Below are positions 33,072 through 45,800 of a DNA stretch of 64,000 nt, one piece after another. The stretch's first letter is position 1. Each line of letters begins with the position of its first letter. The stretch is from the human T2T-CHM13v2.0 reference genome, Homo sapiens. The notes beneath the pieces are model-generated. The model was not told the origin of the DNA. It did not search any database and saw only the letters and a list, made by a program, of their open reading frames with translations. The translations under genes were made by a program, and so were the position numbers. Location of the stretch: the NCBI RefSeq assembly GCF_009914755.1, contig NC_060925.1; one strand, given 5' to 3'.

Positions 33072-36000
33072 CCAAAGTATTTTCCTTAGCTGCCAACCGA
33101 CAGCCATTAAGTTCAGAGTCATTAGGGTCCCTCTGCTCCCCCATGTTCACTTTGGCTCCCTAGAGCATTGCCACATAGTGAGGAGACACTGCACCGTGTG
33201 GGTGGGGACCAGGTGGCCGTGGAGAGGTGGCAGTCTGGGACGCAGAGACAGGTTTATTGTCAGCATTGCACAGAGGCCAGGAGGCAAGAACACGGAAGGG
33301 TAGCAGTGCAGGTCTGGAGGTCTCCAGGGAACTCCAATCCTCTCATCCAACTCCCGGACCGGCCTTGGGACACTGCCCAGATGCGTAACTGGAAGCCAGA
33401 GGACCCCAATAGGAGGAGCATCCTGGGGAACCTAGGGTCCTGGAAGGGCAGCCCTGCCTCACTCGCCCCTGCGTCCTGGACGCCCCTGCGTCCCTTGTGC
33501 GGACATAGAGCACAGCTTGGTCAGGCTGAGCAGGCTGGCACTCCAGAGCAGAGCCCCCAACCCCAGCTTGCAGATAAAGTAGAAAAGGGGGCTTGGCGGG
33601 GGCGGAGCTTAATGATGGGCGGGAACAGGCGGAAACTACAGGGAGTCCAGCCAATCCCTCCAATGGATGAGGCCAAATAAGGGGGCGGGGCTAGAGAGTG
33701 CTGAACTAGAGAGGGCTGAGCTGAAGCTTGAGGGCAGGCCAAGGGGCGTGGTCATTATGGTCATTATGTTGCGGGTGGGGCCGGGGTCCGCCTGCCTTGC
33801 TGACTGAAACAGCGTCTCCCGGTTGTCTGCCACCGCCTGCTTGGCCAGGTAGCGCTCGCGCAGTTATCTTGGTAGCCAGGGCTGGCACATCGGGCACGAG
33901 CCGGTCGTTGGGGCACAGGAAGAAGAACACTACATTCTGGGGAGAAGGGGGCCAAAAAGAGAGAATGATTGCCTTAGCGATCTTAACTCATGGAGCGCTT
34001 ACCCTGCGCCAAACCCTAACCTGAAGGTTTTCCGGATATGAATTCATTTAATCCTCACAACAACTCTATGAGCTGGGGGTAATTTCTACTCCACAAGCGA
34101 AGAAACAGAAGCAGAAAGGGGTTGCCATTTGCCCAAAGACATAGAGGTATGATTCGAACCCCTTAACACTAGGAACCACGTCAGGGCAGGGCTTGTAAAA
34201 GAGCAAAGCTGGTGGGAGAGTGCTTCCTCTCGTTTCTCCTTTCTCTTGCCAAGAGATAATGTTATTATTATTTGTGATATTAATTCATTGAGCACCTACA
34301 ACATGCCAGGCACAGTGCAAATGCTTGACACCGAACCTTCATAACGACCCTATGAAGTAGATCCTATTATATAATATATCCCAATTTCCAGCCGGTCGGC
34401 GGCAGAGCCTGAACTTGGAACCAAGTCTGTCCAAGACAGATGGCTGAGCCTACCTCGAAGGCGATAATGAAACCCAGATGCACATGCACAGCCAGCAGCT
34501 TCCAGTAGAAGAGGGCGAGGTTCACCCCCACGTCGCGAGAGGCCTTGTATCTGGGTTGCGGGGTCTGGAGAGGCTCTCGGATCTCGACTCCGAACCCCGC
34601 ATTTCCTCCCCTCCTTCTCCCTAGAATCTGGCCCTGCCCGTTCAGCCAGTACCCTAGCCGGCTCCGCGCATTTGTCCGGGGCAGAATCAGCTCACTGCAC
34701 CCCAGCCAGGCACCACCCCACCCGTCCAGTTTCGGCTCCCGGCTTCCCAGCTAGGCCCCGCCCCTCCCTCCTCAGCACCTGCCCCTCCCAGACAGGCCCC
34801 GCCCACCAAAGCTTAGCACCCGCCCTCTCCCAGGCCGGCCTCCCTCACCAAGGCTCAGCGCCGTGCTTCCCAGACAGCCCTGCCCCTCCCGCCTCAGCGT
34901 CCCGCCAACCAAGGCTCAGCGCCACGCCCTTCCCAGGAAGGCCTCGCCCACCAAAGCTCAGGGCCCCGCCCCTCCCGCCGCGCCCCTCCTCCCCAGCCTG
35001 AAGGGCAGAGTGTGTTTGCTCTGGGCCAGGTGGGCATGGGGCGCGGGTGCCCGCGTGAAATTCACAAATCCGTGCAGCTGGGTGTGGTGTTCGTACTGTT
35101 ACGGGATATGCGGCAGAAGTCCGAGATGAAGGCGAGACGAAAGCCTGCAGAGCCAGAGGGCCTTCAGGGCCCAACCCCCTAACTCACCCCAACTCGGATC
35201 CAGACCCCCTCCCGTGGCAGGATGAGCCTTTGGCCCGGGATCCTAGCCTCCTCTCCCCTATTTCCCAAACTCTGACCCGGATTTCCTTCTCCAGCCCTGT
35301 ATTTCCCTATTCCTGAACCCCCTTCCCCAGTCTCTGAGCTCCATCTCCCCCGCCCCCTGCCCCTGTATTCCCTTCATCTACCTCACTCCCATTCACGGTG
35401 ACCTCAAGGTGTACCATGGCCTCCAGCAGGAGCAGTCAGATCCAGATGTCCAGCCGCGCCCAGCCATTGGTCGCTGGTACTTGCACAGGAACTTGTGGGC
35501 GTCCAGTCCAATCTCTACCCGGTTGTTGAGCAGAGTGAACAGGGGTGCCAGCAGGAAGGCTCCCACAAAGATGGTGATGAACCCAAACTGCAGCTCTGGC
35601 AGGCAGGGAGTGTCAGGCCCGGGGCCACCTCCCCTGTTGTGCCAGGCCCCCAGGGGCCCCACTCATGCCCAGGGCACACGCTGCTGAGCGACTGCTCCTC
35701 CATCCCTGGGTATTCATCAAACAGGCCCTGACACTTGATGAGCTCATAGTCCTTCCTTCTCCCAGTGCTGCAGCTCCTGCCCGATCTGGGTGTCCCTCTG
35801 CCCTGCCAGCTGCCACTTCTGCCACCAAGCCTTCCGTTTCCTGGAGGCAGGGCAACCAGATAATGGTCATAACAGGGCCTTGTGCTAGGAACTGCCACTT
35901 CTATCACCAGCACCCCTTAGAGGCAGGCACCATGATGATTTCCACTGTATTGATGAGGAAACACACCTGGAGAATTTGGCCCAGGCTCCCCAAATTGTAA

Positions 36001-44099: not shown

Positions 44100-45800
44100 T
44101 GAGGCACGCCGAGGAAGGGCAAATCAGCCTTGGCTGGGCTAAGGCTTCTGCTGGCTCCAGCCCCTCCGCGGACAGACCCTGCCCACCCAAGGGGCCGCCT
44201 GGTCTCACTTGTCCGGCTCCGAGCTGCGGAAGGCGCACGAATCCTACGGCCGGCTGGGCACCTACTGCTGCAGAGGGTTGCGCAGGCGCAGGCGTCGCCG
44301 TGGCTCCGCCGAGCCCTCAGAGTCGGGGTTGGGCCGGGCCTGGGGTCAAGGGCAGGGTTACGGCCCCCTAGGGAGACTCCGCCCCTGGCGGACCCCGCCC
44401 CACCCCTCCACATGAGACGGCGCGCGCAGGCTCAGTTCCTCGGCGTAGCACAGCGGCTCCCAGGCGCGCTCAGCTCGGCGAAGGGTGCGGCGCTATGCCG
44501 GGGTACTCTCCTGGGCTGCTCTCCCAGGAGGAGAGGGAAGGACCCCTAAGCCCCTCCCCTCACGATCTCGGCCGGGAGGTGACAGATCCCTTTTTTTGTT
44601 GTTGTTTTGTTTTTTTGAGACAACATCTCGCTGTTGCTGGAGTGCAGTGGCGCGATCTTGGCTCACCACAACTTCCGCCTCCCGGATTCAAGCGATTTTC
44701 CTGCCTCAGCCTCCCGAGTAGCTGGGACTACAGGCGTGCGCCACCACGCCCCGCTAATTTTTGTATTTTTAGTAGAGACAGGGTTTCACCATATTGGCCA
44801 GGCTGGTCTCGAACTCCTGGGCTCAGGTGATTCGTCCGCCTCGGCCTCCCAAAGTGCTGGGATTACAGGCGTGAGCCACCGCGCCCGGCCAGATCCCATT
44901 TTTCGCGTCGGTCCTTTCCGCCTTCAAAAGCGCTTTGACATGCCTTTCCTCGTTTAAATTTCAAATGAGGAAAACGAACACCTTCGTTTTTCAAACGCGG
45001 AGACAGACGCCGGGTGGGCCGCGTCGTATAGCGACTGATCTTGCTCCTTTCTTGGGCACCTCCAATGTGCCAGGTCCTGGGCTGAGCGCTTTACACCCTG
45101 CGTCCGTGTAATCGTCACAGCCCCTGCCTGGGGCTGACACTACGGCCAAATCCATTTGACAGATGAGCTGCTGAAGGCTCTTGTGCGGGTCTCAGAGCTG
45201 GCTAGGGGCGTCTGCGCTCGGCCTCGGGTCTCGCAGCCCGCCGGCTCCGTGCTCACCTCCTCCAGGTTCCGCTGAAAATTCTCGCGCCAGCGCCGCTGCC
45301 GGAGTCGCCTCTCTCCCGCCGCCGCGGGGGTCGCAGCTTCTCCTCCCAGGCGAGCACGAAGTCTAACCCATCGCGGGGTCAGGGGGACAGTTAGGAGCGG
45401 TCTGACCCCGCTCTGTCCCACTTTTATCTGGGTGGAAAAGGGGATCTGAGTCCATCAGTCCCACTAAGGCCAAAATTAAAGGAAATTTGAGTTGTAGCAA
45501 AAGGTATTAGGGTTAGTTCGAGGAAGGAACTGCCCATTGCAAGAAAATGACAAGAGACGCTGCGGGATTCCTCGGGGAGGGGAGAGGGGGTTTAAGGGAG
45601 AGCCTGTGGCCTGGCCACTCGGGCCTTCTGGGTGAGGTGGGACAAGAGTATGGGTGAGTCTGACCCAAGTCTCACCAATGCAGGTTTTCCCGTCTCAGAA
45701 AATGTACCCCTAGAGTCCGGCACATAAATGCCGCCGCAGGGCGCGAGACACAGTCGTCGTCCTGTCGGTGGCGTCATCGCCGTCTTGGTGCAGCAGGCAT
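44100..45800. promoter_or_regulatory. CpG-rich region over the 5' exons of the anoctamin pseudogene
   Basis: High CpG density at 44100-44580 and 44990-45790, split by an Alu. Confidence 0.6.
44591..44890 (-). mobile_element. CpG-rich Alu
   Basis: Antisense dimer flanked by AGATCCC(T/A)TTTTT. Confidence 0.9.

What the first reader, a model, noticed from the sequence alone, without database searches (positions are those of the whole stretch)
33800..45709. ANO7L1 looks like an ancient lost anoctamin paralogue, not a recent copy of ANO7
Seen: 19 intron-separated exon remnants cover nearly the whole TMEM16 fold in order. Conserved family motifs are kept (QPLD, YFGxK, LFDHxGTVFF, QFVNFYSS, FVGYPG, GGC, IMVGKQ, GLFDEY, QFGF, APLF, VPD). 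Variable segments differ from ANO7 as I recall it, often by conservative changes. Inference: long purifying selection as an independent gene preceded inactivation, making this a unitary pseudogene of an extra anoctamin that may be intact in other vertebrates. Recalled context: ARHGEF19/EPHA2 here parallel NGEF/EPHA4 on distal 2q, where ANO7 also lies, which is compatible with a whole-genome-duplication origin.
Basis: partly seen in the sequence, partly recalled or inferred. Interest (0 to 1): 0.8.

Follow-up and report, generated by a model that had tools for sequence, protein, structure and literature searches.

The report
Ancient lost anoctamin gene, ANO7L1
ANO7L1 is the broken remnant of an old vertebrate membrane-protein gene, a sister of ANO7 that shrews, marsupials, reptiles, frogs and fish still appear to keep intact, so the anoctamin family once had eleven members in our ancestors, not ten.

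Summary
On the minus strand, 19 exon remnants (window 33789-45375) align in order to residues 54-852 of an 853-aa shrew anoctamin. Pfam places five pieces colinearly on the Anoctamin and Anoct_dimer models.

The remnant is not a recent ANO7 copy:
- It is 69.7% identical to the shrew protein and 50.6% to gorilla ANO7.
- Outside repeats, only six exon pieces align to the human ANO7 locus, at 71-83% DNA identity, and no intron aligns.
- Trees place it with shrew and tree shrew proteins (SH-aLRT 100), inside a clade running from lamprey to marsupials and reptiles. This clade is sister to true ANO7.
- AU tests reject nesting in eutherian ANO7 (p 2e-46) or in the ANO7 clade (p 2e-4).

The gene is dead in humans: at least five in-frame stops, about eight frameshifts and a missing TM4 half-exon. 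One frameshift is shared with colobus.

A whole-genome-duplication origin is compatible but unproven, and synteny in other species could not be tested. Eight literature searches found no paper describing this history.

The parts
45263..45375 (-). Exon remnant 1 (shrew P0003 residues about 54-93, N-terminal cytosolic part); frame change inside (about 45310-45328)
   Evidence: two overlapping tblastn pieces in frames -2 and -1
44415..44462 (-). Exon remnant 2 (residues 123-139); residues 94-122 upstream of it not detectable
44208..44342 (-). Exon remnant 3 (residues 140-186); two TAG stops at 44262-44264 and 44244-44246, a 2-residue deletion; low end coincides with annotated GT donor at 44209
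   Evidence: colobus model reads K and Q at the two stops
43755..43817 (-). Exon remnant 4 (residues 186-207); TGA stop at 43761-43763; high end coincides with annotated AG acceptor at 43815
43575..43682 (-). Exon remnant 5 (residues 208-241), Anoct_dimer match
   Evidence: (PF16178 151-194/221, 31.1 bits)
43281..43457 (-). Exon remnant 6 (residues 242-297); 12-base duplication (QPLD twice) and TGA stop at 43323-43325; YFGxK motif
   Evidence: DNA match to ANO7 exon 71.4% over 133
43112..43198 (-). Exon remnant 7 (residues 298-326, TM1 region); high end coincides with annotated AG acceptor at 43197
42922..43010 (-). Exon remnant 8 (residues 327-361); frame change inside
   Evidence: (tree shrew and shrew guides use different frames for the two halves)
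42672..42836 (-). Exon remnant 9 (residues 357-411, LFDHPGTVFF motif); two frame changes around 42765 and 42722
   Evidence: pieces in frames -3, -1, -3; DNA match to ANO7 exon 75.4% over 130
42544..42717 (.). 57-base tandem repeat, 3.1 copies, 96% matches, triplicating the 3' end of remnant 9 and the start of its intron
   Evidence: repeated peptide visible
38324..38464 (-). Exon remnant 10 (residues 409-455); AG directly upstream
38113..38214 (-). Exon remnant 11 (residues 455-488, TM3 region), 88% identical to shrew and tree shrew; AG directly upstream
37540..37622 (-). Exon remnant 12 (residues 530-559, QFVNFYSS); 5' half of the exon (residues 489-529, TM4) missing; frame change near 37600; low end coincides with annotated GT donor at 37541
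   Evidence: TM4 assignment from alignment to Anoctamin-1 6bgi and the TM4 residue named in the passage
37215..37303 (-). Displaced direct duplicate of 91 bases of remnant 16 (QFGF exon), 84.6% identical, lying in the intron between remnants 12 and 13
   Evidence: peptide seen
36723..36755 (-). Exon remnant 13 (residues 559-569, FVGYPG)
   Evidence: 11 of 11 identical to turtle P0008
36397..36489 (-). Exon remnant 14 (residues about 578-608, GGC and IMVGKQ, TM6); AG directly upstream
   Evidence: DNA match to ANO7 exon 74.7% over 83
35710..35839 (-). Exon remnant 15 (residues 611-654, GLFDEY); frame change at about 35754; high end coincides with annotated AG acceptor at 35840
   Evidence: (guide P0008: two pieces overlapping by one base)
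35391..35593 (-). Exon remnant 16 (residues 655-724, QFGF, APLF, TM7-TM8); frame change at about 35455 shared with colobus and P0001 models, then a stop
   Evidence: (54.5 bits); DNA match to ANO7 exon 73.0% over 211
35006..35116 (-). Exon remnant 17 (residues 729-770); TAA stop at 35099-35101
34454..34552 (-). Exon remnant 18 (residues 773-803); 2-residue insertion; low end coincides with annotated GT donor at 34454
33789..33939 (-). Exon remnant 19 (residues 803-852, VPD, C-terminus); frame change at about 33862; high end coincides with annotated AG acceptor at 33936

Best explanation
ANO7L1 is a unitary pseudogene. It is the decayed human copy of an independent, ancient vertebrate anoctamin that is the sister paralogue of ANO7 (TMEM16G).

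Shown here:
- The two genes arose by a genomic, intron-keeping duplication. It happened before ray-finned and lobe-finned vertebrates diverged and, on this data, before cyclostomes diverged.
- The ANO7L1-type gene then evolved under strong constraint. Gene models predict it as a full-length protein in shrew, tree shrew, marsupials, reptiles, amphibians, fish, sharks, lamprey and hagfish.
- In the primate lineage it lost constraint before the human/colobus ancestor and has since collected stops, frameshifts, a lost TM4 half-exon, a 57-base triplication and an internal exon duplicate.
- No functional anoctamin can be made from it in humans.

Inferred, not shown:
- The intact protein is a Ca2+-activated TMEM16-type scramblase or channel like its relatives.
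- The duplication was one of the early vertebrate whole-genome duplications.

The locus is still transcribed (RefSeq label given by the hub), and the annotated transcripts reuse several ancestral splice sites.
For: Identity and placement:
- 19 colinear pieces cover shrew residues 54-852. Pfam hits are colinear.
- Identity of the projected remnant: shrew 477/684 (69.7%), turtle ANO7-like 365/629 (58.0%), gorilla ANO7 245/484 (50.6%), turtle ANO7 239/504 (47.4%).
- Tree 1 (83 rows, 905 columns, LG+G4) and tree 2 (75 rows, 912 columns, LG+C20+F+G4, outgroups at two depths) agree. Remnant + shrew + tree shrew SH-aLRT 100; with marsupials 100; ANO7L1-type clade 99; ANO7 clade 100; both together 99. 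The result was the same whether the remnant was projected on a shrew guide or a gorilla ANO7 guide.
- AU tests (24 rows, ANO7-guided remnant): remnant with eutherian ANO7 dlnL 123.85, p 2.3e-46; remnant with the whole ANO7 clade dlnL 58.37, p 1.9e-4.

Kind of duplication:
- Against the 50-kb ANO7 locus, only 6 non-repeat HSPs of 447 were found, all exonic at 71-83% identity. No intron aligns.
- Intron positions are shared with ANO7 at 11 places.

Decay in the human lineage:
- Stops and frame changes. TM4 half-exon missing.
- Human branch 0.322 replacements per site, tree shrew 0.045, shrew 0.059, over 634 columns. 111 of 417 columns that are invariant in shrew, tree shrew, marsupial and turtle are changed in the human remnant.
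- Colobus (P0002) and P0001 models read the same wrong frame after the frameshift near 35455. Between human and colobus, coding-frame pieces are no better conserved (87/98) than a wrong-frame stretch (55/59).

Timing of the duplication:
- Placing cyclostomes outside all jawed-vertebrate copies is rejected: dlnL 23.48, p 0.0013.

Transcription:
- 7 of 16 annotated transcript exon borders fall within 3 bases of ancestral exon borders. 15 of the 16 carry AG or GT.
Against: - The intact orthologues are automatic gene models known here only as proteins. No codon-level dN/dS could be computed, and frame corrections in those models cannot be excluded.
- Synteny of those genes with ARHGEF19 and CPLANE2 was not testable.
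- Rooting rests on unnamed representatives and one insect protein.
- treekit flagged long branches meeting (the ANO7 stem is 0.43-0.51) and odd composition of the remnant rows.
- The one search tests were framed after the tree was seen, and used LG+G4 only.
- No shark, cyclostome, amphibian or marsupial member of the ANO7 clade was in my sample. That needs either losses or incomplete sampling, since only the best 120 of 1111 and of 2669 hits were listed.
- ARHGEF19's closest paralogous exon is on contig 7 (55%), not contig 2 (43%).
- Part of the output (about 40176-40877) was cut from view. That part lies inside the stretch the hub lists as repeat-masked.
Confidence: 0.9

Rival explanations
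1. ANO7L1 is a recent (primate or eutherian) segmental duplicate of ANO7 that decayed after copying.
For: The gene name suggests it. ANO7 is the closest intact human gene: the best non-self hits of the shrew protein in the own genome are ANO7 exons.
Against: AU tests reject nesting in eutherian ANO7 (p 2.3e-46) and in the ANO7 clade (p 1.9e-4). Exon DNA identity to ANO7 is only 71-83% and introns do not align. The remnant is 69.7% identical to the shrew protein against 50.6% to gorilla ANO7.
Confidence: 0.01
2. The paralogue is ancient but arose by a small-scale duplication followed by relocation, not by a vertebrate whole-genome duplication.
For: Only one linked paralogue pair was tested, and ARHGEF19's closest relative lies on contig 7, not near ANO7. 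[quoted passage not shown] The 2022 preprint reports frequent tandem duplication of TMEM16G in invertebrates (10.1101/2022.04.22.489151, passages).
Against: The split predates the ray-fin/lobe-fin divergence and apparently the cyclostome divergence, which is the right window for the early duplications. ARHGEF19-type exons sit on four chromosomes, including contig 2 at 233.38 Mb, the pattern expected of a four-fold paralogy group.
Confidence: 0.3
3. The locus has taken on a new function in humans as a regulatory non-coding RNA or a short peptide gene, so it is not simply dead.
For: RefSeq labels it a transcribed pseudogene with 10 predicted transcripts (hub annotation). The transcripts use canonical splice sites, several of them ancestral. 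It appears in expression or association lists in four papers: I read passages of two (PMC9104122, slight upregulation trend in LGMD-R12 muscle; PMC12689003, excluded for inconsistent effect direction) and saw the other two only in the search listing.
Against: Between human and colobus, exon pieces are no better conserved than a wrong-frame stretch (87/98 against 55/59). No paper I found tests a function. Transcription of old pseudogenes from a surviving CpG-rich promoter is common (general knowledge).
Confidence: 0.1
4. The gene was already dead in the placental ancestor, and the shrew and tree shrew proteins are over-optimistic gene models.
For: Among placentals, only these two full-length models appeared in the best 120 hits. 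The primate models P0001 and P0002 show that predictors do build proteins over this pseudogene.
Against: The shrew and tree shrew proteins are 88.9% identical over 853 residues and 81-82% identical to a marsupial. Their branches are 0.045-0.059, against 0.322 for human. Two pseudogenes drifting since the placental ancestor would not be this similar.
Confidence: 0.04

Closest known systems
ANO7 (TMEM16G, NGEP), human contig 2 at 241.69-241.72 Mb
   Same: Sister paralogue. Same domain order (Anoct_dimer then Anoctamin). Intron positions shared at 11 places. 58.0% identity between gorilla ANO7 and the shrew ANO7L1-type protein over 838 residues.
   Different: A separate deep clade on a different chromosome. 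ANO7 is intact in humans. The ANO7 clade evolves faster: gorilla to turtle 67.6%, against 75.2% for shrew to turtle in the ANO7L1 type. That ANO7 acts as a Ca2+-dependent scramblase is recalled from the literature, not tested here.
'anoctamin-7' and 'anoctamin-7-like' proteins of shrew, tree shrew, marsupials, turtles, squamates, amphibians, fish, sharks and lamprey (P0003-P0120)
   Same: The same orthologous clade as the human remnant (SH-aLRT 99-100). 69.7% identity to shrew.
   Different: They are full-length predicted proteins. The human copy has stops, frameshifts and missing parts. Many carry the plain name 'anoctamin-7' although they group with ANO7L1 and not with mammalian ANO7.
Anoctamin-1 (TMEM16A, PDB 6bgi, 5oyb) and Anoctamin-6 (TMEM16F, 6p46)
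   Same: The nearest solved structures to the intact shrew protein: E 8.3e-192 and 2.3e-173, aligned nearly end to end. The acidic residues in the EYxEM and NNxxEIRLD stretches of TM7-TM8 are identical in the printed alignment.
   Different: Different subfamilies. No ANO7-type structure is in the bank. That those residues are the Ca2+ ligands is recalled, not tested.
TMEM16L (ANO11) of the 2022 preprint 10.1101/2022.04.22.489151
   Same: Also proposed as an extra anoctamin subfamily beyond the classical ten.
   Different: It is an invertebrate subfamily that the preprint says was lost in vertebrates. ANO7L1 belongs to the TMEM16G branch. [quoted passage not shown]

Membership tests
Anoctamin / TMEM16 family (Pfam PF04547 with PF16178) | Match to the Anoctamin domain model | tested here: met
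   35396-35662 scores 54.5 bits (cut-off 28). Three further pieces score 21-27 bits, below cut-off singly, at colinear model positions 39-96, 208-227 and 241-276.
Anoctamin / TMEM16 family (Pfam PF04547 with PF16178) | N-terminal anoctamin dimerisation domain | tested here: met
   43461-43760 scores 31.1 bits (cut-off 22), model positions 151-194 of 221.
Anoctamin / TMEM16 family (Pfam PF04547 with PF16178) | Ca2+-binding acidic residues in TM6-TM8 | tested here: inconclusive
   In the alignment the shrew protein keeps the acidic residues of the EYxEM and NNxxEIRLD stretches of Anoctamin-1. The human remnant keeps the E and D of the second stretch. Which residues bind Ca2+ is recalled, not derived from a call.
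ANO7 (TMEM16G proper) orthologue group | Nests within the ANO7 clade in a family tree | tested here: not met
   Searches place it in the sister clade. AU tests reject it with eutherian ANO7 (p 2.3e-46) and with the ANO7 clade (p 1.9e-4).
ANO7 (TMEM16G proper) orthologue group | Recent copy: alignable introns and high DNA identity to ANO7 | tested here: not met
   only 6 exonic HSPs at 71-83% identity. The other 441 HSPs are multi-copy repeats.
ANO7L1-type (anoctamin-7-like) orthologue group | Nests within the clade, at the place the species tree predicts | tested here: met
   With shrew and tree shrew 100, then marsupials 100, then sauropsids, amphibians and fish. Pairs with tree shrew (79).
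ANO7L1-type (anoctamin-7-like) orthologue group | Conserved position between ARHGEF19 and CPLANE2 in other species | not testable with these tools
   No vertebrate genome other than the window's own is held. The protein hits carry no positions.
Unitary pseudogene | Disabling lesions in the coding frame | tested here: met
   Five in-frame stops in well-aligned columns (44262, 44244, 43761, 43323, 35099), about eight frame changes, and two missing stretches. One search listed 11 in-column stops. I set aside 6 of them: four in the poorly aligned 5' stretch, and two produced by reading past a frameshift.
Unitary pseudogene | Not a duplicated or processed copy of a live gene in the same genome | tested here: met
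   Introns are retained at ancestral positions. It is a deep paralogue of ANO7. The own-genome search found no closer locus (a stricter first look was used there, so weak matches may be missing).
Unitary pseudogene | Intact orthologue in other species | tested here: met
   Full-length models with both Pfam domains exist in shrew, tree shrew, marsupials, reptiles, amphibians and fish, with short branches. This is at the level of predicted proteins only.
Processed (retrotransposed) pseudogene | Intronless copy of an mRNA | tested here: not met
   19 pieces spread over 11.6 kb, with intervening sequence, and AG or GT at many borders.

The most novel reading that the evidence does not exclude
The ANO7L1-type gene, not mammalian ANO7, is the slowly evolving, ancestral-like TMEM16G of vertebrates. 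It has been kept from lamprey to marsupials and then lost more than once within placental mammals. The ANO7 of mammals is the faster, more derived copy. If so, most genes called 'ano7' in frogs, sharks, lampreys and many teleosts are orthologues of the gene humans lost. Work on them then models an eleventh anoctamin rather than human ANO7.
Probability: 0.45. Interest if true: 0.55.

Novelty: new member of a known kind. Interest (0 to 1): 0.45.

Why it matters
The anoctamin (TMEM16) field counts ten vertebrate paralogues. The 2010 family study says so (PMC2974728, abstract and passages), and the 2022 preprint used ten human proteins (passages).

This analysis shows an eleventh, well-conserved lineage that humans carry only as a wreck. 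Three practical consequences follow:

- **Orthology.** Orthology tables for "ANO7" across vertebrates need care. Proteins named anoctamin-7 in shrew, tree shrew, anole, frogs, sharks, lamprey and many teleosts group with ANO7L1, not with human ANO7.
- **Function.** The intact gene in opossum, frog or fish offers a way to ask what function primates gave up.
- **Human genetics.** ANO7L1 signals in expression or association studies should be read as coming from a non-coding remnant, not from an anoctamin protein.

Losing one copy of an old duplicate pair is a common fate, so the finding is useful but not startling. The locus is already annotated as a pseudogene, and its name hints at this status.

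Tried and rejected
- **Failed outgroup.** P0166, named anoctamin-4, fell among cat ANO7. I replaced it with representatives chosen by their match to human ANO1, 2, 4, 5 and 6 exons.
- **Interrupted run.** Tree 2 did not finish and was resumed unchanged.
- **Over-counted lesions.** A mechanical stop count over-counts, because tblastn reads through short introns and past frameshifts. Six of its 11 stops were set aside.
- **Dating the inactivation.** The excess human branch is 0.277 replacements per site. 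With recalled neutral rates of 1.0-2.2e-9 per site per year, this gives about 63-160 million years, and the upper end is impossible.
- **Processed pseudogene.** Considered and rejected, because introns are present.
- **Literature.** The following found no account of this gene's origin: ANO7L1 (4 papers, expression or association lists); ANO7P1 (1 paper); anoctamin + pseudogene + paralog + vertebrate (12); unitary pseudogene + anoctamin (0); anoctamin + phylogenetic + ohnolog (0); anoctamin-7-like variants (10 found, 9 listed, none relevant; "ANO7L" there is the long ANO7 isoform); anoctamin + whole genome duplication + synteny (3); ANO11/TMEM16L variants (28 found, 10 listed).
- **Not seen.** Supplements of the bioRxiv preprint are closed, and I did not open the supplements of PMC2974728. 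Its 186-gene list could contain ANO7L1-type sequences filed under ANO7.

Full report
**What is there.** I scanned 19 of these frames against Pfam. Five matched Anoctamin or Anoct_dimer in the same order as the models: Anoct_dimer 151-194 at 43461-43760, then Anoctamin 39-96, 208-227, 241-276 and 334-379 at 42408-42890, 37540-37614, 36391-36543 and 35396-35662. Two hit unrelated DUFs at chance level, and twelve hit nothing. With intact relatives as tblastn guides, the remnant resolves into 19 separate, colinear pieces from 45375 to 33789, covering residues 54-852 of an 853-residue shrew protein. Two stretches are not detectable. Residues 94-122 are absent. So are residues 489-529, where the best local score is 33 against a 95th percentile of 32 for shuffled queries. 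The second stretch aligns to TM4 of Anoctamin-1 (the TM4 residue is named in the passage).

**Finding the right comparison set.** A search with the best exon returned two long proteins, P0001 (no organism) and P0002 (named anoctamin-7, Colobus). Both are gene models built over the same pseudogene in other primates, because they contain stretches that match wrong-frame or intronic translations of the human sequence. I used P0002 as a tool-supplied stand-in, and that search returned 1111 hits, of which the best 120 were listed. The top full-length proteins were "anoctamin-7" of shrew and tree shrew, then "anoctamin-7-like" of marsupials, turtles, squamates and amphibians, and many fish. No eutherian ANO7 was among the 120. 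The window's own genome could be searched, and the shrew protein hit ANO7 exons on contig 2 at 241.70-241.72 Mb and the other anoctamin loci. An ANO7 exon from there retrieved true ANO7 of human, gorilla, mouse, elephant and others. It also retrieved a second, different gene in reptiles, birds, gar and tarpon-like fish (2669 hits, 120 listed).

**Ancient paralogue or recent copy.** I projected the remnant onto guide proteins inside a script, with X at every break. It is 69.7% identical to shrew (477/684), 58.0% to turtle ANO7-like (365/629), 50.6% to gorilla ANO7 (245/484) and 47.4% to turtle ANO7 (239/504). Against 50 kb spanning human ANO7, blastn gave 447 HSPs. All but six are multi-copy repeats. 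The six are exon pieces at 71-83% identity, and no intron aligns. Part of that output was cut from view, but it lies in a stretch the hub lists as repeat-masked.

A first tree used 81 proteins hand-picked from the 240 for taxon spread, plus two versions of the remnant (83 rows, 905 columns, LG+G4). A second tree used 49 of those proteins, 17 unnamed representatives at 42-46% identity, 6 representatives matching human ANO1, 2, 4, 5 or 6 exons, one insect protein and the two remnant rows (75 rows, 912 columns, LG+C20+F+G4). The outgroups were chosen from the 149 new representatives that one search returned. Both trees give the same picture:
- Vertebrate ANO7-type proteins form one clade (SH-aLRT 99) with two halves.
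- One half (100) holds eutherian ANO7, birds, the second gene of turtles and squamates, gar and elopomorph fish.
- The other half (99) holds lamprey and hagfish, sharks, ray-finned fish, coelacanth, lungfish, amphibians, crocodile, turtles, squamates, marsupials, shrew, tree shrew and the human remnant.
- The remnant joins shrew and tree shrew at 100, and that group joins marsupials at 100, whichever guide was used.

On a 24-row set with the ANO7-guided remnant, forcing it into eutherian ANO7 costs 123.85 log-likelihood units (p-AU 2.3e-46). Forcing it into the ANO7 clade costs 58.37 (p 1.9e-4). There it pairs with tree shrew (79), as the species tree predicts. The recent-copy reading is refuted.

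**Kind and age of the duplication.** ANO7 exon borders, mapped to shrew numbering, fall at 186, 298, 328, 360, 455, 489, 559, 610, 655, 724 and 773. The remnant's pieces break at the same places within a few residues. So the duplication copied a gene with its introns. Both halves of the tree contain ray-finned fish and tetrapods. A percomorph (Gambusia, a fused model) also matches the ANO7 half best, at 55-58% against 47-49%. The split is therefore at least as old as bony vertebrates. Holding all jawed-vertebrate copies together with cyclostomes outside is rejected (dlnL 23.48, p 0.0013), and so is joining cyclostomes to the ANO7 half (dlnL 23.39, p 0.0015). These tests were framed after the tree was seen, used LG+G4 only, and involve a long ANO7 stem, so I treat the pre-cyclostome date as likely, not shown.

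An ARHGEF19 DH-domain exon finds paralogous exons on contig 7 (55%), contig 2 at 233.38 Mb (43%), contig 1 at 2.97 Mb (44%) and contig 17 (42%). That is a four-chromosome pattern including distal contig 2, 8.3 Mb from ANO7. However, the closest relative is not the one near ANO7. The gene names for these places are my inference from position. A whole-genome-duplication origin is compatible but unproven.

**Constraint, then decay.** The intact ANO7L1-type proteins are well conserved: shrew to tree shrew 88.9%, shrew to marsupial 81.9%, shrew to turtle 75.2%. This exceeds ANO7 at a like distance, where gorilla to turtle is 67.6%. I compared the human remnant with shrew, tree shrew and a marsupial over the 634 columns filled in all four. 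The human branch is 0.322 replacements per site, against 0.045 for tree shrew and 0.059 for shrew. Of 417 columns invariant in shrew, tree shrew, marsupial and turtle, 111 are changed in the human remnant.

Lesions in the human sequence:
- In-frame stops at 44262 (TAG), 44244 (TAG), 43761 (TGA), 43323 (TGA) and 35099 (TAA), plus one in a small insertion near 35439.
- Frame changes near 45310-45328, 42981-43010, 42765, 42722, 37600, 35754, 35455 and 33862.
- A 12-base duplication that repeats QPLD.
- A 57-base unit present 3.1 times over the 3' end of piece 9.
- The lost TM4 half-exon.

The colobus and P0001 models continue after the 35455 frameshift in the same wrong frame as the human sequence, so that lesion predates their common ancestor. 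The two TAG stops read K and Q in colobus, so they came later. Between human and colobus, four clean coding-frame pieces are 87/98 identical and a wrong-frame stretch is 55/59, so there is no sign of coding constraint since their split. If the tree shrew model is truly intact, the loss falls between the primate/tree shrew split and the human/colobus ancestor.

**What the locus does now.** The hub's RefSeq table calls it a transcribed pseudogene. Of the 16 annotated transcript exon borders I examined, 15 carry AG or GT, and 7 lie within 3 bases of ancestral exon borders: 43815, 43197, 35840, 33936, 44209, 37541 and 34454. So the transcripts are what remains of the old gene's splicing. No anoctamin can be translated. 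For the intact protein, the nearest solved structures are Anoctamin-1 (E 8.3e-192) and Anoctamin-6, and there is no ANO7-type structure. The acidic residues in TM7-TM8 that I recall as Ca2+ ligands are conserved in the shrew protein in that alignment. The inference that the intact gene encodes a Ca2+-activated scramblase or channel rests on family membership only.

**Is it known?** The locus is annotated and named, and its relatives are labelled "anoctamin-7-like" by their sources. In print I found nothing on its origin. Eight searches gave only expression or association lists (passages read), the 2010 family study that counts ten vertebrate paralogues (abstract and passages), and a 2022 preprint whose TMEM16L/ANO11 is an invertebrate subfamily (passages). 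I did not see the supplements of either evolutionary study.

**Verdict.** This is a real feature. I rate it a new member of a known kind and of moderate interest.

Noticed in passing
window 37215-37303 (-) versus 35540-35629 (-): A 91-base direct duplicate (84.6% identical) of part of the QFGF (TM7) exon. It sits 1.7 kb away in the intron between remnants 12 and 13, and is an old internal duplication within the pseudogene.
   Followed up: partly
window 42544-42717: A 57-base unit repeated 3.1 times (96% matches) that triplicates the end of exon remnant 9. The annotated transcript exon ends at a GT at 42567, within the repeat array and downstream of the ancestral exon end (42672). Whether the copy number varies among people was not checked.
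   Followed up: partly
window 38832-39250: A GGAT-rich minisatellite with 82-, 80- and 63-base periods in the long intron, with strong GC skew (0.53 in the window centred there).
   Followed up: no
window 34771-34995: A 42-base proline-rich-coding repeat (2.6 copies), with a further 77%-identical copy at 34915-34995, between exon remnants 17 and 18. It overlaps the RefSeq silencer marks listed by the hub.
   Followed up: no
protein P0166 (source name: anoctamin-4 isoform X4, Prionailurus iriomotensis): It falls inside cat ANO7 in the tree (sister to cheetah ANO7, SH-aLRT 97), so the source name looks wrong.
   Followed up: partly
protein P0121 (Gambusia affinis, 1511 aa): Looks like a fusion of two ANO7-clade anoctamins in one gene model. 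Both halves match gar and tarpon ANO7 at 55-58%, which suggests a tandem pair or a model error.
   Followed up: partly
window 23513-23674 (-), ARHGEF19 exon: Paralogous exons found on contig 7 (145.55 Mb, 55%), contig 2 (233.38 Mb, 43%), contig 1 (2.97 Mb, 44%) and contig 17 (8.22 Mb, 42%), a four-chromosome paralogy pattern.
   Followed up: partly
proteins P0003, P0004, P0017, P0034, P0045, P0100 and others: Many source names say 'anoctamin-7' for proteins that group with ANO7L1 and not with mammalian ANO7 (shrew, tree shrew, anole, tree frog, elephant shark, lamprey, many teleosts). Automatic naming hides the two-gene history.
   Followed up: yes
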